Part shown: in pieces, positions 55,705 to 64,000 of the stretch
How positions within the stretch are numbered: the stretch's first letter is position 1
Layout of the letters: the number at the start of each line of letters is the position of its first letter
IMG/VR virus record: IMGVR_UViG_3300022187_000019
Strand: one strand, 5' to 3'
Source: a virus
Taxonomy: Duplodnaviria; Heunggongvirae; Uroviricota; Caudoviricetes
Length of the DNA: 64,000 nucleotides
Translations under genes and position numbers: made by a program
Notes under the pieces: model-generated
The model's database searches: none
What the model saw: the letters and a program-made list of their open reading frames with translations, nothing else
What the model was told of the DNA's origin: nothing

Positions 55705-55865
55705 ATGATGGCGTGATGATCGTGATGGCGTGATGATCGTGATGCCGAGGAGGCGTGATGGAGGGGATCGAGATGGCGTGATGGGCGTGATGGCGGGGTG
55801 GGTTTTTGCGATTTGGGCGTGATGGAGAGGTAATTAGAGGAGGTGATAAGGGACGAGTGATGGTG
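55705..55865 (+). repeat. array of about 10 GCGTGATGG direct repeats
   Basis: GGCGTGATG recurring every 9-25 bp in the divergent intergenic region. Confidence 0.6.
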
Positions 55866-57227: not shown

Positions 57228-57579
57228 CTTCCCGGTCACCGTCCCGATCCGGCGGCCCGACTCGATCGAAACACTGACAGTCTCGATTGACATTGACAAA
57301 ATCGCTGTTGTCAAGTCATTGCTTGACAAAGTGGAGGAAAGTGGTGTAGAGTCCGACTTCTGCTCCCTTCTACCTGCAACCGAAATCCTTCTGGACGATG
57401 GCAGGAAGCTCCCGGTGGTCGAACCGGTGGAAGAAATCCTCCGCTACCTCGACGCCTACCGAGAACTTGATCTCTTCTTCACCGGCGGCCCGCCGGTGCT
57501 GGAGACCAGAGAGGGGAATGTCATCCCTCTGTTCAAAGTCTCCCCATGCGCTTCATCGGTGGGATCGACCCCGGCCTGA
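57222..57579 (+). CDS. hypothetical protein (GTG start)
   Basis: overlaps neighbouring genes. Confidence 0.35.
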
Positions 57580-58094
57580 CCGGGGCACTCGCGGTCCTCG
57601 ATCTCCAAGATTTCCAGCTTCACCTCTGGGACACCCCCACTCTGATCGTCAAGGTCGGGGACAAAGAACGCAAGCGCTGCGACGTGGATGGCTACGTCGC
57701 GGCGTTTTCGCATTTCCCGCTCGACTACTGCACGATCGAAAACGTGCAATCGACGCCGAACGATGGTCATGTCGGCGCGTTCACCTTCGGTAAGGTTACT
57801 GGCATCGCCCTCGGCATCGCCGCCGGCCTCGACATCCCCATGGCTTCGGTCGCCCCGGCCAAGTGGAAGATGCACATGCAGTGCCCGGCCGACAAGGAGC
57901 AGACCAAGCACCGCGCTTCGCTCCTCTTCCCGAATTGCACCGCCGGCTGGTCCCGCAAGATGGATCATGGCCGGGCCGAGTCCGCTCTGATCGCCCTCTA
58001 TTCCGCGATCCTGTTGGGCCACCAGCCCACCCAACCCTTCCACCTCGGTCTCATCAACGGGACCCTCCCCAAGAGAAAAGGGGCACCCAAGTAA
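57546..58094 (+). CDS. ruvC: RuvC-like Holliday-junction resolvase
   Basis: 182 aa; MRFIGGIDPGLTGALAVLD. Confidence 0.75.
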   Translation: MRFIGGIDPGLTGALAVLDLQDFQLHLWDTPTLIVKVGDKERKRCDVDGYVAAFSHFPLDYCTIENVQSTPNDGHVGAFTFGKVTGIALGIAAGLDIPMASVAPAKWKMHMQCPADKEQTKHRASLLFPNCTAGWSRKMDHGRAESALIALYSAILLGHQPTQPFHLGLINGTLPKRKGAPK

Positions 58095-58633
58095 TGGCCC
58101 AAACCTACCTGAACAAGAAGCAGGAGCTTTTCGCCAAGTTCCTCGCCGAAGGCTGCACGCAGCTAGATGCCTACACCAACGCTGGATACGAGCCATCAAG
58201 CTCGAACGCCAGCACCCTCGCCAGCCAGCCGCTCGTGAAACAACGGGTGGAAGAATTGCGTGCGGAGATCGAGCGCAAAAGCGTGGAGTTCGACATTCTC
58301 CGAAAGCAAGCCGCAGGCAGTCCCGAAAGCGCTGTCGAAGTGGCTGCTTGGACCTTCCAACGTGTCATGGACATGATGGCTTCCAATGTGAAGTTCGCTC
58401 AGGCGGCCGGCGAATACAAGGCCGCCAATGAATGCCTCAAGATGATGGGCGATGCCCTCAAAATGTTCGAGAAAGCACAAGCAGATGCAACTAGCGGAAA
58501 GCAAGCGGGACCGCAAAACACGCTTGCACTCATCGGTCAAGTCACTCAAGTCCTTGCAGACGCGAGTGGAGGAAGCAGTCCGCAAGCAGACAACCCTCTC
58601 GCCCCACGACTACCAAGCACTTCGGACGCTTAG
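58094..58633 (+). CDS. terS: terminase small subunit
   Basis: N-terminal HTH-like YLNKKQELFAKFLAEG. Confidence 0.65.
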   Translation: MAQTYLNKKQELFAKFLAEGCTQLDAYTNAGYEPSSSNASTLASQPLVKQRVEELRAEIERKSVEFDILRKQAAGSPESAVEVAAWTFQRVMDMMASNVKFAQAAGEYKAANECLKMMGDALKMFEKAQADATSGKQAGPQNTLALIGQVTQVLADASGGSSPQADNPLAPRLPSTSDA

Positions 58634-60215
58634 TCAGTCCGACGATCTCGACACGCAGCTAACCACGCTCGATAAGACGATCGACTTCGCCGAGGCCGAA
58701 CTGGACGAAGTCTGGATCGAACTGGCGCGCGAGAGCTACCACGATTTCTATGAGTTCATGCAGCGCGAGAATGGTTACACCATGTCGCCGCACCAGAAAC
58801 TCATCGGAGACTTGCTCATGTCCTCCGCTTCCAAGGAGACCATGCGCTTCATGCTGTCCATGCCTCCGGGGCACTGTAAATCGACCCACTCGTCGCACCA
58901 CTTCCCTGCGTGGTGGTTCGGCAAGTTCGGATCGAAGCAGAAGTTCCTGCAAGCCGGGCACAGTCAGGACTTCGTCGCCAAGGAAATCGGTGCAACCGTT
59001 CGCCAGATCATCGCGTCTGAGGATTACCAGCGCGTCTTCCCCGACATCAAGATCAAGCACGACATGCGCGCCATGGACTATTGGGCACTGACCAATGGTA
59101 AGGGCAAATATGTCGGCAAGGGTGTCGGACAGGGTATCTCCGGCTTCCGTGGTCACTACGGTATGGTGGACGATCCCTACAAGAGCCGCAAGGACGCTGA
59201 AAGCCCGACGATCCGCGACACCGCGTTCAAATGGTATTCAGACGACTTCTCCACGCGCCTTCTGCCGGGTTCCCCGCTGGGCATTATTATGACCCGCTGG
59301 CACTCTGACGACCTCTGCGGACGCATCTCAGATCGCGAAGAACGGGAAAAAAGAGAAGAGCAAGAAAAAATAGAAAAAGATTTTGCGGACCAACTCATTG
59401 ATTCTCTTGAGGAAAAAGAGGGAAAACGCAAAAAATACCGCTTTGAAATTATTAATCTCCCCGCCATCGCCGAAGAAGACAACGATATTCTAGGCCGGGC
59501 GTCCGGCGAAGCATTGTGGCCAGAGGTTTACGACCTCGACGCATTGGAAAATCTCAGAAGCGATATGACTTCCGCGTCGTGGAACTCGCTGTATCAGGGC
59601 ACGCCTATGGACGTGAGCGGCGGCGCGGTCGATGCTGAATGGTTCCAGCGCTACACCCATCCGCCGGCCAAGGCCGATCCTGAGAAGGGAACGCAGAACC
59701 AGATTCGTCGCACCGTGGTTTCGGTTGACGCCGCGAACACGGACAAGGAGCGAAGCGACTACACCGTCATCACGGTCTGGATCGAAGACCTCAAACGGAA
59801 CCATTATCTGGTGGACGTGATCCGCAAGCGAATGGAACTGGTCGAACTGTCGTCCGAGATCGCCCGCGTGGTGAAGCGCTACGACGCCGACGCCCTGCTG
59901 GTCGAAGCCAAGGGCAACGGTCTGGCCTATTGCCAGTTGAAGGCGAATGGTGGTGCTCCTACCGCGCTGATCCCAATCGAGGTGGGCACCGCGAGCAAGT
60001 CGTTCCGTTTCGACGAAGTGACGCCGATGTTCGAGGCCGGGCAGGTCTACCTGCCGGAAAGCGCCAAGTGGCTTGCCGATTATGAGAAGGAACTCGTGGC
60101 CTTCCCTAACGGCAAGAATGACGACCAAGTGGACGCCACCTCGCAATATCTGAAATGGGCCAAGCAGAAGGCCCGTCGCGGGACGAAGAAGATGACCGGC
60201 GCTGGCCACCGCTGA
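58452..60215 (+). CDS. terL: terminase large subunit (start uncertain)
   Basis: Walker A SMPPGHCKS, Walker B GMVDDP, nuclease motifs; first in-frame ATG lies 182 nt inside terS. Confidence 0.8.
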   Translation: MPSKCSRKHKQMQLAESKRDRKTRLHSSVKSLKSLQTRVEEAVRKQTTLSPHDYQALRTLSQSDDLDTQLTTLDKTIDFAEAELDEVWIELARESYHDFYEFMQRENGYTMSPHQKLIGDLLMSSASKETMRFMLSMPPGHCKSTHSSHHFPAWWFGKFGSKQKFLQAGHSQDFVAKEIGATVRQIIASEDYQRVFPDIKIKHDMRAMDYWALTNGKGKYVGKGVGQGISGFRGHYGMVDDPYKSRKDAESPTIRDTAFKWYSDDFSTRLLPGSPLGIIMTRWHSDDLCGRISDREEREKREEQEKIEKDFADQLIDSLEEKEGKRKKYRFEIINLPAIAEEDNDILGRASGEALWPEVYDLDALENLRSDMTSASWNSLYQGTPMDVSGGAVDAEWFQRYTHPPAKADPEKGTQNQIRRTVVSVDAANTDKERSDYTVITVWIEDLKRNHYLVDVIRKRMELVELSSEIARVVKRYDADALLVEAKGNGLAYCQLKANGGAPTALIPIEVGTASKSFRFDEVTPMFEAGQVYLPESAKWLADYEKELVAFPNGKNDDQVDATSQYLKWAKQKARRGTKKMTGAGHR

Positions 60216-60234
60216 GCCGGTCATCCAATCAAAA

Positions 60235-60289
60235 ATTATGGATCGAGGCCATTTTGCCTTGCGGTTATTATGGATCGAGGTCATTTTGA
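60235..60289 (+). repeat. 2 copies of ATTATGGATCGAGG(C/T)CATTTTG
   Basis: same 22-mer family as the 61304-61487 array. Confidence 0.6.
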
Positions 60290-60368
60290 TGCTCCCGTTC
60301 GGGAACATTAGCGTAAAAACCGCCCGAATCTGACCGAAATGACCCCGTTCGGGAACATTCGGGCGGTC

Positions 60369-60488
60369 GTTAACCTTAACGAAATCGCTCCCGGCGTTAA
60401 CCTTAACAGAAATGCCGGCCGCGTTAACCTTAACGAAACCTTCCAATCCGTTAACCTTAACAAATCCCCTCCCCGCGTTAACCTTAAC
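60369..60488 (+). repeat. 5 phased copies of GTTAACCTTAAC (27-bp period)
   Basis: copies at 60369, 60396, 60423, 60450 and 60477. Confidence 0.7.
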
Positions 60489-61303
60489 AAAAGGCCCGCC
60501 ATGCTCTCGTCCGCCAGCCTGCATCCGCACCGTCCCGCCGATCAGGGGGACCCCGACGAACGACATCCGGCCGACGGTCCCCACGACACAGACTAGGGGA
60601 CCCTCCCCCTCAGAGCAAGGGCCGGGGACCCCTTTTCTCCAGACCTCTGGGACCCTCCCCGTCAGGACATAGGCCGGGGTGTTGGATTTCGATTTTCCAT
60701 CACTCCTTCCACCCATATCTCCACCATTTCCGGGCAGCACGCCCCCCTCCCACCTCCATCACATCCTCCAGCCGCCTCCACAAATCGCCCTGAGAAGCCT
60801 CGGGAAGCGATCGACGACCCATGTCCGGCGTCCCGGATCGTCCCCTTGAGGCCGCGCCGCGCCGGTAATGTTGCACCGACTAAAGTCACACAATCTGTAG
60901 ATTGGAATATTAGAAGGGAAAATGGCAGTTTTCTGCGGGTTTGAAGGGGCAAAGTCGAAAAAAGATTTTGTGATTTTACAGCCTAATGTTGTAAAAGATG
61001 GTTCGTCAAATCGGACCCCGGCCGGGTCGGCTCCACCACCAATGTCAAGTGAAACTGTCGGTGTAATGTCGAAAAACGGACATTTGGCGACATAAGGCCG
61101 GGAAATTGACCCCTCAGAGGGTAAAATGGCGGATTTGACCCGTTTTCTGGTGCTTCGACCGCCATTCTGGCTTTACAGTGCCCGTCTGGAGGCCCCTCAG
61201 AGCCGTTCTAAGCGCCGTGGAGCCTCAACAGGTCCTCCCGGTGCCTTCTGGGGCCTCCTGACGCCCTGTGGCGCTCCCTGAGCCTCCCACGGGCCTTCCC
61301 ATG

Positions 61304-61487
61304 TCATGGATCGAGGTCATTTTGCTGGGTGATCGCCCGCGACCGCTCCGAAGTCATGGATCGAAGTCATTTTGCAAAATTATGGACCGAGGCCATTTTG
61401 CATCTGCTATTATGGATCGAGGTCATTTTGCGATTCTATGGACCGAGGCCATTTTGCGCCGGGAGTTATGGACGAAGGTCATTTTGC
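61304..61487 (+). repeat. 6 iteron-like copies of (T)ATGGA(T/C)CGAGG(T/C)CATTTTGC
   Basis: copies near 61304, 61353, 61379, 61408, 61435 and 61466. Confidence 0.7.
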
Positions 61488-61567
61488 ATCTGATTTTGAA
61501 AACCGCGCCCGCGATCGTCGCCGCGCGCCCAGCCGATGGTTAACGCGCGCGAAACCGCGCCGGCCGG

Positions 61568-61751
61568 GTAAGGTTAACGAAATCGACCGATCCGTTAAGG
61601 TTAACGACTTAGTTAGTGTTAACGGTTCGTTAAGGTTAACAAAATCCACCACTTCGTTAAGGTTAACGCCGGAGCCGTTAAGGTTAACGCGGCGTTAAGG
61701 TTAACGACTTCCTCCATCTGTTAAGGTTAACGCCCAGCCCCAGCCCGTTAA
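61568..61751 (+). repeat. 7-8 copies of GTTAAGGTTAAC (inverse orientation of the 60369 array) plus GTTAAC half-sites
   Basis: copies at 61568, 61594, 61629, 61656, 61677, 61694 and 61720; half-sites at 61539, 61618 and 61746. Confidence 0.7.
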
Positions 61752-61776
61752 CCATTTGCGCGGTGGAATTAGTGCT

Positions 61777-61838
61777 TGACCGAATCACTCTCCTCCCCTA
61801 GCAAGATGGCGTGCAATGTCGCACAGGAGACAGACGCA
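61777..61838 (+). promoter_or_regulatory. conserved promoter+leader module (+ strand version)
   Basis: AGTGCTTGACCGAATC-...-TAGCAA...CAGGAGACAGACGCA-ATG. Confidence 0.55.
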
Positions 61839-62240
61839 ATGCCCTTCCCTCTCTCGACCCAAGAGCAACTGGCCACATTCCGCGAAGACGCGGACTCTGG
61901 CGTCGCTATGGTTCATGTCGATACCTGCATCGGCTGCTATTTGCAGGATCATCACAATCGCGATGGCGAATGCCTTTTCGGCGTCTATGTCGATGGCAAT
62001 TCGACCGTTGACGACGTTCGGAAAGGACTCATCGACGAGGTGCGCCAGACGGGCGACCGCGTGCCGGACGAGGTGACAGACGAGGCAATCGCCGCCGCTA
62101 TCGACGCGACATTCGATGGCGTCGATCCTGCCCGGATTTTCGATGCTTCGCTGGAGGTGCCGGACGAGGATGCGGACGACGACGGCGCGGAAAGCTGCCA
62201 AGCGTGGTTCGTCCTTACATGGGAGATCGCCGATAATTGA
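61839..62240 (+). CDS. hypothetical acidic protein
   Basis: start at MPFPLST directly after GGAGACAGAC. Confidence 0.5.
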   Translation: MPFPLSTQEQLATFREDADSGVAMVHVDTCIGCYLQDHHNRDGECLFGVYVDGNSTVDDVRKGLIDEVRQTGDRVPDEVTDEAIAAAIDATFDGVDPARIFDASLEVPDEDADDDGAESCQAWFVLTWEIADN

Positions 62241-62283
62241 AGCCATCACGCGCCTAATAGGCGGCATCATCCTTATCATCTTG

Positions 62284-62314
62284 GCGGCTGGACTCTCTTG
62301 AGTCCGGCCGCTTT
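62284..62314 (+). terminator. rho-independent terminator
   Basis: GCGGCTGGACTC-TCTT-GAGTCCGGCCGC followed by TTT. Confidence 0.55.
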
Positions 62315-62335
62315 GGCTTGCCGGTCCTAACCATT

Positions 62336-62446
62336 CGTTAAGGTTAACGCGGCGGTCCAGCCCGTTAACCATTGATCGGTGGAAAAAGTGCTTGACCGAA
62401 TCGGTCCCCTCACCTAGAAACGAATCATCAAATAGGGAGACACGAT
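62336..62446 (+). promoter_or_regulatory. operator GTTAAGGTTAACG...GTTAACCA + promoter TTGACC-17-TAGAAA + leader
   Basis: GACCGAATCGGTC palindrome spanning the -35 element. Confidence 0.55.
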
Positions 62447-62728
62447 TTGTCGGATCATTTTTTCGCACGCAGTCCCATGCCGGGCTTCATCGAAGTGGAC
62501 ATATGGGAAAAGCAAGCGCGCCGCGATGATTGCGGACCGGGCTTCGCCATGATCGCCGTCCCTCACGTCGCTGCGGTCCTGAACGTCTGGAACGACGCTG
62601 ACCGCGAAATCTGGGACCATTGCACGATTATTCTCGCGTCCGGCCTGCGGATCGAAACAACGGCGTGCTTTGAGCAAATCGAAGAGGCCATCATCAACGC
62701 CACGAAGCAAAAGGAGATCGCCGCATGA
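62447..62728 (+). CDS. hypothetical protein (TTG start)
   Basis: 93 aa. Confidence 0.5.
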   Translation: MSDHFFARSPMPGFIEVDIWEKQARRDDCGPGFAMIAVPHVAAVLNVWNDADREIWDHCTIILASGLRIETTACFEQIEEAIINATKQKEIAA

Positions 62729-63138
62729 AGAAAGGCCCGACCGTCTATGTCGCCGTCATCGAGCACGGCAACGGCAATAACGTCTATGTGGCGGAATCGC
62801 CGAAAGTGCTGGAAGAGGAAATTTATGCGTTTGTCGCCGACTGGTGGGAAACCGAATATCCTGACAAGGCGATGCCGGAGGATAAGGCTGACGCCATTGC
62901 GGAATATTTCGAGGATCATCATTCGGAATATCTGACCCGGATCGGCGAAACCTACATTTCCGTCGCCGACGCCCCTCCCCGCCTGTCCGAACAAGCCCGG
63001 CTGGGCCTGATCGAAGAACTGAACGAGAAAGGCGAGGCGGACGGCTGCGCCGACATGACAAGCATGATCCGCCGCGCCTTGCTGGTCGAGACCGAGGAGG
63101 AGGCGGAAGCCCTTCGGGAAGAATACGGCCTGAACTAA
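62725..63138 (+). CDS. hypothetical acidic protein
   Basis: 137 aa, ATGA coupling. Confidence 0.55.
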   Translation: MKKGPTVYVAVIEHGNGNNVYVAESPKVLEEEIYAFVADWWETEYPDKAMPEDKADAIAEYFEDHHSEYLTRIGETYISVADAPPRLSEQARLGLIEELNEKGEADGCADMTSMIRRALLVETEEEAEALREEYGLN

Positions 63139-63143
63139 GGGAG

Positions 63144-63165
63144 GGAGGCGAAAGCCTCCCTTTCC
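63144..63165 (+). terminator. rho-independent terminator
   Basis: GGGAGGC-GAAA-GCCTCCC followed by TTTCC. Confidence 0.55.
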
Positions 63166-63184
63166 TGTCATCCGTTACCATCCG

Positions 63185-63277
63185 TTAAGGTTAACGCCCA
63201 GCCCGGATAATATGGAAAAAGTGCTTGACCGAATCGGCGGAGCATACTAGAAACGAATCACCAACAAGGAGACAGAC
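63185..63277 (+). promoter_or_regulatory. operator GTTAAGGTTAACG + promoter TTGACC-17-TAGAAA + leader
   Basis: CAACAAGGAGACAGAC-ATG. Confidence 0.6.
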
Positions 63278-63481
63278 ATGCCCAAGTTTTTCGTTGATTA
63301 TACGGTGACGGAATTCACGCACCAGCGCGTCGTCGTGGAAGCGGAGACGGCGGAACAGGCCCTCGAACTCATGTATGAATATGAGGTGGACCTGTCCGAA
63401 TCGTGGCAGATCGACTCGATGAAATACGAGATCGATTATGTCGAGATCACCGGCACGGTGGCGGAGGACGCGAAGGCATGA
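63278..63481 (+). CDS. hypothetical protein
   Basis: 67 aa. Confidence 0.55.
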   Translation: MPKFFVDYTVTEFTHQRVVVEAETAEQALELMYEYEVDLSESWQIDSMKYEIDYVEITGTVAEDAKA

Positions 63482-63684
63482 CGACGCCCGCGATGCCGGA
63501 CGCGATCCGCGCAACCATCATTAACGCCCTGCACTGCCACGGCGATGCCGTCTTTCAGGGGTCGCAATATGGCGACTATTCCGAGGAGGAGTTGCACGAC
63601 TCCAATATGGAAATCGCCGCCGCACTAGAATGGCTGGGCGAAGCGGAGTCCGCCGCATCCTTTCGGACGGCTGGCGGTGAGTAA
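63478..63684 (+). CDS. hypothetical protein
   Basis: ATGA coupling; about 68 aa. Confidence 0.45.
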   Translation: MTTPAMPDAIRATIINALHCHGDAVFQGSQYGDYSEEELHDSNMEIAAALEWLGEAESAASFRTAGGE

Positions 63685-63862
63685 GCGCCACCGCGTCGCC
63701 GTCGTCCATTGCCCGGACGGTTTCCTGCGTCAGCGCGTCCTATCGCGCTGGGCAACCATAGCGGAGGCGGAGGCGGAAATCGCCCGCATAGAGCGCGAGG
63801 AAGACCCGCAAGGCGTCCCAAGGGGCGACTATGGGATTGATCCGCCGGAGGATATGATTTGA
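63677..63862 (+). CDS. hypothetical protein (GTG start)
   Basis: 61 aa. Confidence 0.35.
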   Translation: MSKRHRVAVVHCPDGFLRQRVLSRWATIAEAEAEIARIEREEDPQGVPRGDYGIDPPEDMI

Positions 63863-63863
63863 G

Positions 63864-63889
63864 GGGGCTAACGCCCCCTCTTTCTTTTT
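63864..63889 (+). terminator. rho-independent terminator
   Basis: GGGGGC-TAAC-GCCCCC followed by TCTTTCTTTTT. Confidence 0.7.
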
Positions 63890-63898
63890 GTGGAATAA

Positions 63899-63956
63899 GT
63901 GCTTGACCGAATCAGTCCCTTCGCCTAGAAACGAATCAACAGCAAGGAGACAGACA
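63899..63956 (+). promoter_or_regulatory. conserved promoter+leader module
   Basis: TTGACC-17-TAGAAA-CGAATCAACAGCAAGGAGACAGACA-ATG. Confidence 0.6.
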
Positions 63957-64000
63957 ATGTTCAAGGTTTATCGCTCTTCCGTCCGCGAAGTCGGTCCCAG
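63957..64000 (+). CDS. hypothetical protein, 5' fragment (runs off the window)
   Basis: MFKVYRSSVREVGP... Confidence 0.35.
   Translation, partial: MFKVYRSSVREVGP

What the first reader, a model, noticed from the sequence alone, without database searches (positions are those of the whole stretch)
60216..61775. 1.5-kb non-coding region after terL packed with two phased repeat families, candidate pac / ori / partition locus
Five copies of GTTAACCTTAAC sit at an exact 27-bp period (60369-60488). Seven to eight copies of the inverse GTTAAGGTTAAC lie at 61568-61731. Eight copies of a 22-mer (T)ATGGAYCGAGGYCATTTTGC lie at 60235-60289 and 61304-61487. There are additional GTTAAC half-sites. No ORF is present. 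Single GTTAAGGTTAACG...GTTAACCA units recur immediately upstream of the + strand family promoters at 61720, 62336 and 63185, so this 12-mer is also used as an operator. Opposed arrays of a near-palindromic 12-mer resemble ParB/parS-type centromeres, iteron origins, or terminase small-subunit binding arrays. A DGQHR/ParB-like gene is present at 4467..5324.
Basis: seen in the sequence. Interest (0 to 1): 0.7.

Follow-up and report, generated by a model that had tools for sequence, protein, structure and literature searches.

The report
Repeat arrays at phage genome end
The 1.5-kb gene-free stretch after the terminase gene is a conserved block of three phased repeat families that, in the two related phages whose DNA ends were mapped, fills the first 1-2 kb of the packaged chromosome inside a long terminal repeat; it probably combines a DNA-packaging recognition site with the operators of the early promoters, and is not a plasmid-style partition site.

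Summary
There are 5+7 clustered copies of GTTAACCTTAAC (14 in the window, 0.06 expected) and 8 copies of a 20-mer, all within 60236-61752.

The order is terL, GTTAAC array, phased GGGACCC array, 600-780-bp spacer with an AT-rich dip, 20-mer array, GTTAAC array, first early promoter. It recurs in XM05, Lacusarx, vB_EliS-L02, RXM, a phage contig in a Sphingobium assembly, at least 10 IMG/VR contigs, and Caulobacter phages phiCbK and CcrColossus. In the last two the left DNA end was mapped 0.1-0.85 kb upstream of the arrays, inside a long direct terminal repeat.

The 12-mer is the operator of the early promoters: 18 of 21 carry it at about -57 to -90. It contains the CtrA motif TTAACCAT, but its spacing is N17, not the canonical N7. 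The 20-mer diverges along with TerS, is absent from bacterial genomes, and is my candidate TerS site.

Best reading: a composite left-end control region (packaging recognition plus early-promoter operator arrays). Partition is unsupported; an origin is not excluded. No binding protein or DNA end was shown for this phage.

The parts
58094..58633 (+). terS, the small terminase subunit; candidate binder of the 20-mer
   Evidence: PHROG terminase small subunit 1.4e-14. Pfam Terminase_2 N-terminal part E=3.8e-5, just under the gathering score. The HTH region is conserved in 4 phages.
58452..60215 (+). terL, the large terminase subunit; its stop codon borders the repeat region
   Evidence: tblastn 66-76% identity to XM05, Lacusarx and L02 TerL, and 38% to phiCbK TerL. 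Terminase_6C in the called gene.
60236..60290 (+). Left pair of 20-mers (TTATGGATCGAGGYCATTTTG)
   Evidence: 38 bits each in the weight-matrix scan
60369..60488 (+). Left operator array: 5 x GTTAACCTTAAC at an exact 27-bp period, with no promoter downstream
   Evidence: The 27 bp equals the GTTAACC-to-GTTAACC spacing of type-B promoter operators.
60547..60690 (+). GGGACCC array (4 copies at 60547, 60597, 60625, 60649) ending in the best-conserved block of the centre (GGGACCC-N6-(C)TCAGGACATAGGCCGGGGT)
   Evidence: Homologous 3-7-copy arrays at 23-28-bp spacing occur in 13+ phages, including phiCbK and Colossus.
60691..61303 (.). Spacer or centre: pyrimidine-rich tract (~60695-60790), AT-rich dip (~60880-60980, 36% GC), two inverted GCCATTTT cores (60919, 61123). 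Length is conserved, sequence is not.
   Evidence: 594-782 bp in 13 phages, each with an AT-rich dip
61304..61488 (+). Right 20-mer array, 6 copies, alternating 26/30-bp spacing
61538..61753 (+). Right operator array: 7 x GTTAAGGTTAAC (one with 1 mismatch) plus GTTAAC half-sites at 61539, 61618 and 61747 (GTTAACCAT)
61776..61804 (+). First early promoter (TTGACC-17-TAGCAA), the first of a stereotyped family GTGCTTGACCGAATC...
62337..62397 (+). Operator pair (GTTAAGGTTAAC-N15-GTTAACCAT) plus the second early promoter
63184..63230 (+). Single operator plus the third early promoter

Best explanation
The region is the conserved cis-acting 'left-end control region' of a phiCbK/Lacusarx-type virulent siphophage. 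By homology with the two relatives whose ends were mapped, it forms the first ~1.5 kb of the packaged chromosome. It lies inside a long direct terminal repeat (DTR) that carries the early genes, just downstream of the site where terminase starts packaging.

It holds three kinds of protein-binding arrays.

(1) The GTTAACC-type 12-mers are the operator of the early promoters. At a promoter the unit is a 12-mer, N15, then GTTAACCAT, centred at about -57 to -90. In the gap the same unit is chained 5 and 7 times. The binder is most likely the host cell-cycle regulator CtrA or a protein with CtrA-like specificity, because the site contains the CtrA motif TTAACCAT and the sites are invariant from Caulobacter phages to sphingomonad phages.

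(2) The 20-mers (8 copies, one orientation) are the lineage-specific element. I propose they are the TerS recognition sites on which terminase assembles, cosB- or pac-like, lying inside the DNA that is about to be packaged.

(3) The phased GGGACCC array sits next to the end. It recurs at the far edge of the early block, and within 45 bp of the mapped right end of phiCbK. I take it to be an accessory boundary element for an unknown, highly conserved factor.

Shown: the motifs, their statistics, their conserved order, their promoter association, and their position relative to mapped ends in the relatives. Inferred: every binding protein, the DTR and the ends in this phage, and the packaging role.
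For: Repeats and statistics.

Conserved order after terL in XM05, Lacusarx and L02, RXM, at least 10 IMG/VR contigs with TerL 70-78% identical, a Lacusarx-like phage contig in a Sphingobium assembly, phiCbK and CcrColossus.

Position:
- In Lacusarx a ~10.5-kb region at 2x coverage starts right after the terminase genes (PMC5648845).
- The phiCbK left end was mapped by tag ligation inside terL. The Colossus left end lies in non-coding DNA just after terL and was interpreted as the packaging initiation site (PMC3556154).
- The arrays begin at +788 and +106 from those ends.

Operator role:
- 18 of 21 GTGCTTGACCGAATC promoters between 61.8 and 75.9 kb carry GGTTAAC or GTTAACC within 95 nt upstream.
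- TTAA is 13-25 times denser in the early block than elsewhere.
- TTAACCAT is a documented CtrA motif (PMC6180460).
- The DTRs of phiCbK-like phages and Lacusarx are reported rich in predicted CtrA sites, with EMSA support for phiCbK probes (PMC9437464).

20-mer and TerS:
- TerS has a Terminase_2-type N-terminal DNA-binding region.
- Its helix 'NASTLA' is invariant in the 4 sphingomonad phages aligned (the Lacusarx TerS was not included), and those four share the 20-mer core.
- phiCbK TerS is only 28% identical with a different helix, and its array unit has also diverged to GACG..GAGCGTTTTGAC.
- The exact 20-mer is absent from 185,579 bacterial species genomes.

GGGACCC: it is the only 7-mer present at least twice at both edges of the early block in all 4 phages tested. 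It lies 45 bp inside the mapped phiCbK right end.
Against: - No ends were mapped for this phage. Contig ends at 60553 and 60716 are most likely assembly breaks in repeats.
- The distance from the mapped end to the arrays differs between Colossus (~100-350 bp) and phiCbK (~790-850 bp), so the arrays do not set the cut at a fixed distance.
- All three motif families also occur next to internal early promoters in some relatives. L02 has a second module of 20-mer x3, a GGTTAAC array and a promoter. GGGACCC sits beside operators in XM05 and L02. Each phage has an isolated 20-mer deep in the early block. This fits transcription control at least as well as packaging.
- The co-variation between the 20-mer and TerS is only coarse; any phage-encoded protein would show it.
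- The operator spacing is N2/N17, not the canonical CtrA N7. No CtrA binding to these sites has been shown.
- GGGWCCC is not clearly avoided elsewhere in the genome.
Confidence: 0.45

Rival explanations
1. Purely transcriptional control hub. All three repeat families bind regulators of the early promoters (host CtrA plus phage or host factors). The gap is an enhancer, silencer or sink upstream of the first early promoter, for example for the CtrA-dependent 'lytic deferment' proposed for Alphaproteobacteria phages. It would have no role in packaging.
For: The 12-mer is the promoter operator. L02 has a second 20-mer + 12-mer module directly upstream of an internal promoter. GGGACCC sits between operator and -35 at several L02 and XM05 promoters. 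A 1.3-kb intergenic gap packed with CtrA sites is described in Brevundimonas phage Delta (PMC9437464).
Against: The left array and the GGGACCC array have no promoter downstream. The block is pinned to the terL stop and the chromosome end in every relative, including phages whose early genes are otherwise not conserved. The spacer length is conserved without sequence conservation, which is unusual for a promoter-upstream region.
Confidence: 0.25
2. Replication origin. The 20-mers are iterons for a phage initiator, the AT-rich dip in the spacer is the unwinding element, and the flanking CtrA-type sites gate initiation as they do in the Caulobacter chromosomal origin.
For: There are 6+2 direct repeats in one orientation. 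An AT-rich dip of 33-43% GC is present in all 13 phages. CtrA-type sites flank the centre. The 20-mer is lineage-specific, as expected for an initiator site.
Against: No DnaA box lies in the gap. The 20-mer spacing of 26/30 bp is not helically phased, and the array is ~330 bp from the AT-rich dip. No initiator gene is adjacent; in Lacusarx the annotated replication genes lie far from the gap. GC skew shows no origin-like inflection here, though skew is dominated by transcription.
Confidence: 0.15
3. T5-iss-like injection or end-handling element. If packaging runs left to right and the last-packaged right end enters first, the right-hand copy of this region lies at the inner edge of the first-entering terminal repeat. 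That is where T5 has its 1.66-kb untranslated repeat region (the injection stop signal). Bound host proteins would pause DNA entry or protect and organise the end.
For: The topology matches T5: long DTR, early genes, then a conserved ~1.5-kb untranslated repeat block with putative host-factor sites (bioRxiv 10.1101/866236). Colossus has a sharp left and a fuzzy right boundary, which implies left-to-right packaging.
Against: The phiCbK homologue of T5 A1 is in the replication module, not in the DTR, so a T5-style A1-dependent second step is not supported. Two-step transfer has not been reported for these phages in the papers read. The iss mechanism itself is unproven.
Confidence: 0.08
4. ParB/parS-type partition centromere served by the DGQHR protein at 4467-5324.
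For: There are repeat arrays of a near-palindromic site, and the ORF has an NDGQHR motif.
Against: The ORF has no Pfam or NCBIfam ParB hit. I saw no ParA-type gene in this window or among the annotated genes of the relatives' regions I read; XM05, L02 and RXM were read only in part and the window was not fully annotated. The sites are spread over about 20 promoters. The relatives are described as virulent, with linear DTR genomes.
Confidence: 0.02

Closest known systems
Left-end non-coding regions of Caulobacter phages phiCbK and CcrColossus (Dolichocephalovirinae), whose termini were mapped (Gill et al. 2012, PMC3556154)
   Same: Same order of elements after terL: GTTAACC sites, 6 x GGGACCC at 23-25-bp spacing, a spacer, an array of 16-29-bp units ending in ...CRTTTTG or ATTCCATT, a GTTA[AG]GGTTAAC array, then early genes, all inside a long DTR.
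   Different: The 20-mer-type unit has diverged. phiCbK has three small ORFs in the spacer, and its left end lies inside terL. None of the papers I read or searched mentions these repeats; a search for the 12-mer found no paper.
CtrA-binding-site-rich DTRs and gap regions of Alphaproteobacteria phages (Mascolo et al. 2022, PMC9437464)
   Same: TTAA-based sites are concentrated in intergenic DNA of the DTR. Lacusarx and the phiCbK-like phages are explicitly flagged. A 1.3-kb gap with 30 TTAA repeats occurs in phage Delta. The TTAACCAT motif is present here.
   Different: The dominant spacings here are N2 and N17/N23, not N7. The sites form phased arrays and sit at -57 to -90 rather than at the -35. 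CtrA binding has not been tested on these sites. The other two repeat families are not part of that description.
Untranslated repeat region / injection stop signal of the phage T5 terminal repeat
   Same: A 1.2-1.7-kb non-coding block inside a ~10-kb DTR, dense in direct and inverted repeats, conserved in order across relatives whose neighbouring genes are not conserved, with putative host-factor boxes.
   Different: T5 has DnaA boxes and palindromes at the DTR's inner (right) boundary. Here there are no DnaA boxes, and there is no sequence or protein homology. I found no report of two-step transfer for these phages.
TerS recognition sites: SPP1 pacL/pacR, P1 pac hexamer arrays, lambda cosB
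   Same: Repeated short sites for the small terminase, flanking or adjoining the cut, next to the terminase genes. TerS here is of the Terminase_2 (SPP1/SF6) type.
   Different: The scale is about 5-10 times larger (1.5 kb against 0.15-0.3 kb). The genome is expected to have exact long DTRs rather than headful or cos ends. Binding has not been shown. (My description of the SPP1, P1 and lambda sites is from memory, not checked here.)
KorB/OB of plasmid RK2 and SopB/centromere sites of phage N15 (ParB-family proteins doubling as global operator binders)
   Same: One short site is used both in clusters and singly upstream of many promoters.
   Different: No ParB-family DNA-binding protein or ParA was identified. 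The relatives are lytic phages. (Recalled from memory, not tested.)

Membership tests
phiCbK/Lacusarx-type left-end repeat region (homology group defined here) | Located directly after terL and before the block of small early genes | tested here: met
phiCbK/Lacusarx-type left-end repeat region (homology group defined here) | Ordered arrays: GTTAACC sites, phased GGGACCC, 0.6-0.9-kb spacer, 20-mer-type array, GGTTAAC array, promoter | tested here: met
phiCbK/Lacusarx-type left-end repeat region (homology group defined here) | Lies inside a long direct terminal repeat, next to the left physical end | not testable with these tools
   No reads are available for this phage. Inferred from Lacusarx coverage and the mapped ends of phiCbK and Colossus.
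pac/cos-type terminase recognition site | Adjacent to the packaging-initiation cut | tested here: inconclusive
   Met in the homologous regions of phiCbK (+0.79 kb) and Colossus (+0.1 kb). The cut is not mapped in this phage.
pac/cos-type terminase recognition site | Bound by the small terminase subunit | not testable with these tools
   Only indirect evidence: TerS has a Terminase_2 HTH, and there is coarse co-divergence of TerS and the 20-mer.
pac/cos-type terminase recognition site | Unique (or nearly unique) in the genome unit | tested here: inconclusive
   The 20-mer array is unique, but 1-3 extra copies lie deep in the early block. The 12-mer fails this test, being present at about 20 promoters.
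CtrA binding sites | Full site TTAA-N7-TTAA | tested here: not met
   There are only 2 N7 pairs in 60216-64000, against 13 N2, 10 N17 and 14 N23. The pattern is the same in the relatives.
CtrA binding sites | Ungapped variant / half-site TTAACCAT | tested here: met
   3 of the window's 4 copies lie in the region. In the sequenced portions of XM05 and L02, 35 of 36 and 25 of 27 lie in the early block; in Lacusarx, 8 of 12. The motif is documented in PMC6180460.
CtrA binding sites | Bound by CtrA~P | not testable with these tools
   EMSA exists only for canonical sites of phiCbK, Cp1R7A-A1 and Delta.
ParABS partition locus | ParA ATPase plus a ParB with an HTH, encoded next to the centromere | tested here: not met
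   The DGQHR ORF is 55 kb away and has no ParB family hit. No ParA was seen in the ORFs or annotations I read.
Iteron-type replication origin | Direct repeats adjoining an AT-rich unwinding element and host-factor (DnaA/IHF) sites, with an initiator gene nearby | tested here: inconclusive
   Direct repeats and an AT-rich dip are present, but they are ~330 bp apart. There is no DnaA box. No initiator was identified.
T5 injection stop signal region | DnaA-box pairs within large inverted repeats at the inner DTR boundary; A1/A2 pre-early genes in the DTR | tested here: not met
   No DnaA boxes. The A1 homologue of phiCbK lies outside the DTR.

The most novel reading that the evidence does not exclude
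The three arrays could assemble one large nucleoprotein complex at the edge of the terminal repeat. In it a host cell-cycle regulator (CtrA-type, on GTTAACC), an unknown and deeply conserved factor (on GGGWCCC) and the phage TerS (on the 20-mer) would act together. End formation or packaging of a long-DTR genome and firing of the early genes would then both be licensed by the host's cell-cycle state. This would be the first defined cis-acting signal set for generating long exact terminal repeats in the phiCbK-like superfamily.
Probability: 0.15. Interest if true: 0.8.

Novelty: new variant of a known kind. Interest (0 to 1): 0.55.

Why it matters
To my knowledge, how phages with long exact terminal repeats (T5, SPO1 and phiCbK types) recognise and cut their ends is still poorly understood, and no cis-acting packaging signal is defined for the phiCbK-like or Lacusarx-like group.

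This analysis gives a concrete and conserved set of candidates: three motifs in a fixed order with a fixed-length spacer. They lie within 1-2 kb of the experimentally mapped ends in two model phages, so the question can be tested directly in Caulobacter/phiCbK with existing genetics.

It also refines the published idea that CtrA controls these phages' terminal-repeat genes. The dominant site architecture is not the canonical CtrA box but a 12-mer + N15 + TTAACCAT unit at about -57 to -90.

In practical terms, the motif set (GTTAACC array, phased GGGACCC, 20-mer array after terL) should help to orient assemblies of such phages and to place their ends in metagenomes.

Tried and rejected
1. Contig ends as evidence of physical ends. 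One metagenome contig starts exactly at 60553 and another ends at ~60716. However, two other contigs end inside a 34-bp tandem repeat at ~75.7 kb, and many break elsewhere in the early block. Breaks at repeats explain all of these, so I discarded the evidence.

2. GGGACCC as the terminase cut site. It clusters at both edges of the early block, and in Lacusarx the two clusters are 10.47 kb apart, matching the published 10.5-kb repeat. But the mapped ends of phiCbK and Colossus lie 850 and 350 bp upstream of the array. Internal copies exist. The motif is not clearly avoided elsewhere. I therefore demoted it to an accessory or boundary element.

3. RcXuper as a relative with both DTR copies in its record. 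Its organisation is different, so it gave no help.

4. Rfam search and RNA folding of the gap. There was one match far below its gathering score (E = 0.83), and z = -1.0 for the GGGACCC region. No extra sigma-70-like promoter was found in the centre (plus reading the sequence).

5. DnaA boxes: none in the gap.

6. The metagenome-contig scan for a 30-mer at 60553 found nothing.

7. Host use of the motifs. The exact 20-mer is absent from GTDB species genomes. The composite operator occurs at about chance level, apart from one contig that is itself a phage.

8. A conserved ~90-aa gene downstream of the isolated 20-mer as a possible binder. It has no family hit, and RXM lacks the upstream 20-mer, so the question stays open.

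9. The supplement of Mascolo et al. gives only summary counts for Lacusarx, not site positions.

10. Fine-scale TerS/20-mer co-variation using the MK2 phage. Its terS is not in the fetched locus.
Full report
**The observation**

The sequence at 60216-61775 is as described.
- GTTAACCTTAAC occurs five times on the + strand at an exact 27-bp period (60369-60488).
- It occurs seven times on the - strand (six exact, one with one mismatch; 61567-61731), with single copies at 62337 and 63184.
- That is 14 matches against 0.06 expected, and none elsewhere in the 64 kb (TRF).
- The 20-mer ATGGAYCGAGGYCATTTTGC occurs eight times, always on the + strand: two at 60238 and 60270, six at 61306-61487, against 0.02 expected.
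- 18 of the 20 GTTAAC hexamers in the window lie here.

Chance ORFs do cross the repeats, and some pipelines called them. The relatives leave the gap unannotated, apart from one small ORF in L02.

**Context**

The window is part of a large phage of about 60% GC with a tRNA array.
- TerL (58452-60215) is 66-76% identical to those of Erythrobacter phages XM05 and vB_EliS-L02 and Sphingobium phage Lacusarx. It is 53% identical to Citromicrobium phage RXM and 38% to the Caulobacter phiCbK group.
- TerS is 58094-58633, preceded by a RuvC-like resolvase.
- The same phage occurs in several metagenomes as ~150-kb contigs. With those contigs I extended the sequence to window-equivalent 79.7 kb.

**The element is conserved, in order, over a wide evolutionary range**

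All close relatives have a 1.5-kb unannotated gap after terL carrying the same motifs. The order is: terL stop, zero to two 20-mers, a GTTAACC-type array, a GGGWCCC array (3-7 copies, 23-28 bp apart), a spacer, a 20-mer array (5-6 copies), a GGTTAAC array, then the first early promoter.

This order is found in:
- XM05, Lacusarx and L02;
- RXM;
- at least ten IMG/VR contigs with TerL 70-78% identical;
- a 143.9-kb contig in a 'Sphingobium sp. MK2' assembly, which is itself such a phage;
- phiCbK and CcrColossus.

The spacer is 594-782 bp in 13 phages and always has an AT-rich dip (33-43% GC), but its sequence is barely conserved. The exception is the block around the last GGGACCC unit.

GGGACCC and GTTAACC are invariant across the whole set. 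The 20-mer changes with lineage:
- TATGGATCGAGGCCATTTTG in the window phage, XM05 and RXM;
- CTATCGAGCGAGGCCATTTTG in L02 and Lacusarx;
- CTATGCCAARAGGYCATTTTG in the MK2 phage;
- GACG..GAGCGTTTTGAC in phiCbK;
- GACGC.ATTCCATT in Colossus.

**Where it lies on the chromosome**

For Lacusarx, a ~10.5-kb region at about twice the coverage starts immediately after the terminase genes and was interpreted as a direct terminal repeat. Its exact start could not be fixed (PMC5648845).

For phiCbK the ends were mapped by tag ligation. The left end is inside terL (codon 652). In CcrColossus it is in non-coding DNA just after terL, and that sharp boundary was taken as the packaging initiation site (PMC3556154).

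Reading those records:
- In phiCbK the arrays start 788 bp from the mapped left end, and the six GGGACCC are at 853-974.
- In Colossus the record starts at the end, GTTAACCAT is at 106, the six GGGACCC are at 355-475, and the whole first 1.9 kb is this repeat region.

By homology, the region in the window is the first ~1.5 kb of the packaged chromosome and lies inside the terminal repeat. This is an inference; no reads were available for this phage.

Contig ends that looked like termini (60553 and 60716) are best explained as assembly breaks in repeats, like the breaks in a 34-bp tandem repeat at ~75.7 kb.

**The 12-mer is the operator of the early promoters**

Downstream of the gap lie about 16 kb of small genes. 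Each has a near-identical promoter, GTGCTTGACCGAATC...AGAAACGAATCA.
- 18 of 21 such promoters carry the operator. It consists of a 12-mer (in either orientation), N15, then GTTAACCAT, followed by an A/T-rich stretch up to the -35. This places the sites at about -57 to -90.
- When the 12-mer is in the GTTAACC orientation, the two GTTAACC start 27 bp apart. This is exactly the period of the left array, so the arrays are chained operators without promoters.
- TTAA is 13-25 times denser in the early block than in the rest of each genome.
- The favoured spacers are N2, N17 and N23. The canonical CtrA spacing N7 is rare.
- TTAACCAT is a documented CtrA motif (PMC6180460).
- Mascolo et al. reported that the DTRs of phiCbK-like phages and Lacusarx are rich in predicted CtrA sites, and showed CtrA binding to canonical sites from phiCbK (PMC9437464).
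- The composite operator is not used in bacterial chromosomes beyond chance.

I therefore regard a CtrA-type regulator as the most likely binder. The architecture is not the canonical one, and binding is untested.

**The 20-mer**

- A weight-matrix scan finds it only in the gap, plus one to three copies deep in the early block of each phage: window-equivalent 75070, Lacusarx 129248, XM05 29790, L02 24937-24984.
- In L02 those internal copies head a second module of 20-mers, a 12-mer array and a promoter.
- The exact 20-mer is absent from 185,579 species-representative bacterial and archaeal genomes. The binder is therefore probably phage-encoded.
- TerS has a Terminase_2-type N-terminal DNA-binding region. 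Its putative recognition helix (NASTLA) is invariant in the four sphingomonad phages aligned, which share the 20-mer core; the Lacusarx TerS was not in that alignment.
- phiCbK TerS is 28% identical with a different helix, and its array unit has diverged too.

This coarse co-divergence, together with the position next to the packaging start, is why I propose TerS. It is not proof.

**GGGACCC**

- It is the only 7-mer present at least twice both in the post-terL gap and in the gap before the PhoH gene (the far edge of the early block) in all four phages tested. In this phage the second cluster is at window-equivalent 76572-76694.
- In phiCbK a copy lies 45 bp inside the mapped right end, followed by GTTAACCAT.
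- It is not the cut site, because the mapped left ends lie 350-850 bp upstream of the array.
- It also occurs beside operators at some internal promoters of XM05 and L02.
- Its total count is close to expectation.
- It is a quasi-palindrome (GGGWCCC), which suits a dimeric protein. I cannot name that protein.

**Rivals**

- Transcription-only hub. This is the main rival, because all three families touch promoters somewhere.
- Replication origin. It has generic support (direct repeats, an AT-rich dip, CtrA-type flanks), but there is no DnaA box, no helical phasing and no adjacent initiator gene.
- T5-iss-like role. It matches in topology, but the A1 homologue of phiCbK is outside the repeat.
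- Partition. It is not supported. The DGQHR ORF has no ParB family match, I saw no ParA, and the relatives are described as virulent phages with linear genomes.

**Novelty**

Two things are already published: the enrichment of predicted CtrA sites in these terminal repeats, and the existence of the repeats' host DTR. I found no description of the following:
- the three-family phased architecture;
- its conservation from sphingomonad to Caulobacter phages;
- its position at the very start of the packaged DNA;
- the non-canonical operator unit.

A literature search for the 12-mer returned nothing. I rate this a new variant of a known kind, namely a phage terminal cis-acting region that combines packaging and early-promoter control. 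Interest is moderate. It would rise if the arrays prove to be the long-sought signals for making long exact terminal repeats.

Noticed in passing
window 55712-55824 (- strand); also L017 7363-7522 and Lacusarx record 1-330: CATCACG is over-represented about 4-fold in the window (59 matches against 13.7 expected), mostly on the - strand. Eight copies sit within 113 bp in the divergent intergenic region upstream of the packaging operon. CATCACGCC repeats also precede the PhoH/portal operon in this phage, Lacusarx, XM05 and L02. This is probably a middle/late promoter or activator element.
   Followed up: partly
window 61776-61815, 62392-62430, 63225-63262, 63903-63940 and all later early promoters: Most early promoters (about 15 of the 21) contain two GANTC (GAATC) motifs at fixed places, one right after the -35 (TTGACCGAATC) and one right after the -10 (AACGAATCA); the first promoter (61776) has only one. 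GANTC is the CcrM methylation site (from memory) that GcrA reads. Gill et al. report a GcrA homologue in most phiCbK-like phages.
   Followed up: no
window-equivalent 75070 and 75342-75617 (outside the window; L017 ~5980-6530): An isolated 20-mer lies after a tiny membrane-protein gene and ~250 bp upstream of a conserved ~90-aa gene (FTHGRSPY motif). The gene is present in this phage, XM05, Lacusarx gp083 and RXM gene 1. It matches no Pfam or PHROG family. It could be a 20-mer-binding or end-associated protein.
   Followed up: partly
window-equivalent ~75665-75790 (L017 ~6575-6700): A 34-bp tandem repeat (GGCCTTCCCTGCCCGTGCCCCTGCCTGCCCTAGC, ~3.5 copies). One metagenome contig ends there and a second is calculated to end there, so it acts as an assembly breakpoint.
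   Followed up: partly
L073 (NZ_JAZDXA010000009.1, Sphingobium sp. MK2, 143.9-kb contig): This contig of a bacterial genome assembly is a Lacusarx-like phage genome (terL, repeat region, early genes). It may point to a host for this phage group. I did not determine whether it is a contaminant, a carrier state or a pseudolysogen.
   Followed up: partly
window 4467-5324 (-): A 285-aa protein with an NDGQHR (ParB/sulfiredoxin-like) motif. It matches PHROG 5931 (unknown function) and has no Pfam or NCBIfam hit.
   Followed up: partly
window 3-1564: Thirteen tRNA genes in a tight array, the tail end of a larger array as seen in Lacusarx (24 tRNAs).
   Followed up: no
L003 9997-10206 (vB_EliS-L02): L02 has a 70-aa ORF that looks hydrophobic, perhaps a small membrane protein, inserted between the left operator array and the GGGACCC units; its stop codon overlaps the first GGGACCC. 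phiCbK likewise has three small ORFs in the spacer, so the spacer tolerates gene insertion.
   Followed up: no
L039 2147-2290 (phiCbK): Six tandem 22-bp units (CGCCCCGGCGGAGGCCAGGGAC) lie between the GGTTAAC array and gp004. This is a further phiCbK-specific array in the same region.
   Followed up: no
L063 (JAYVXT010000122.1, 'Bryobacterales' MAG, 2.5-kb contig): Three composite operators spaced ~600 bp apart on a tiny contig. It is probably a mis-binned fragment of the early region of a related phage.
   Followed up: no
window 57274-57352: A good sigma-70-like promoter (TTGACA-18-TAGAGT, 10 of 12 matches) and a weaker one nearby lie inside the packaging operon, upstream of the resolvase and terS genes.
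   Followed up: no
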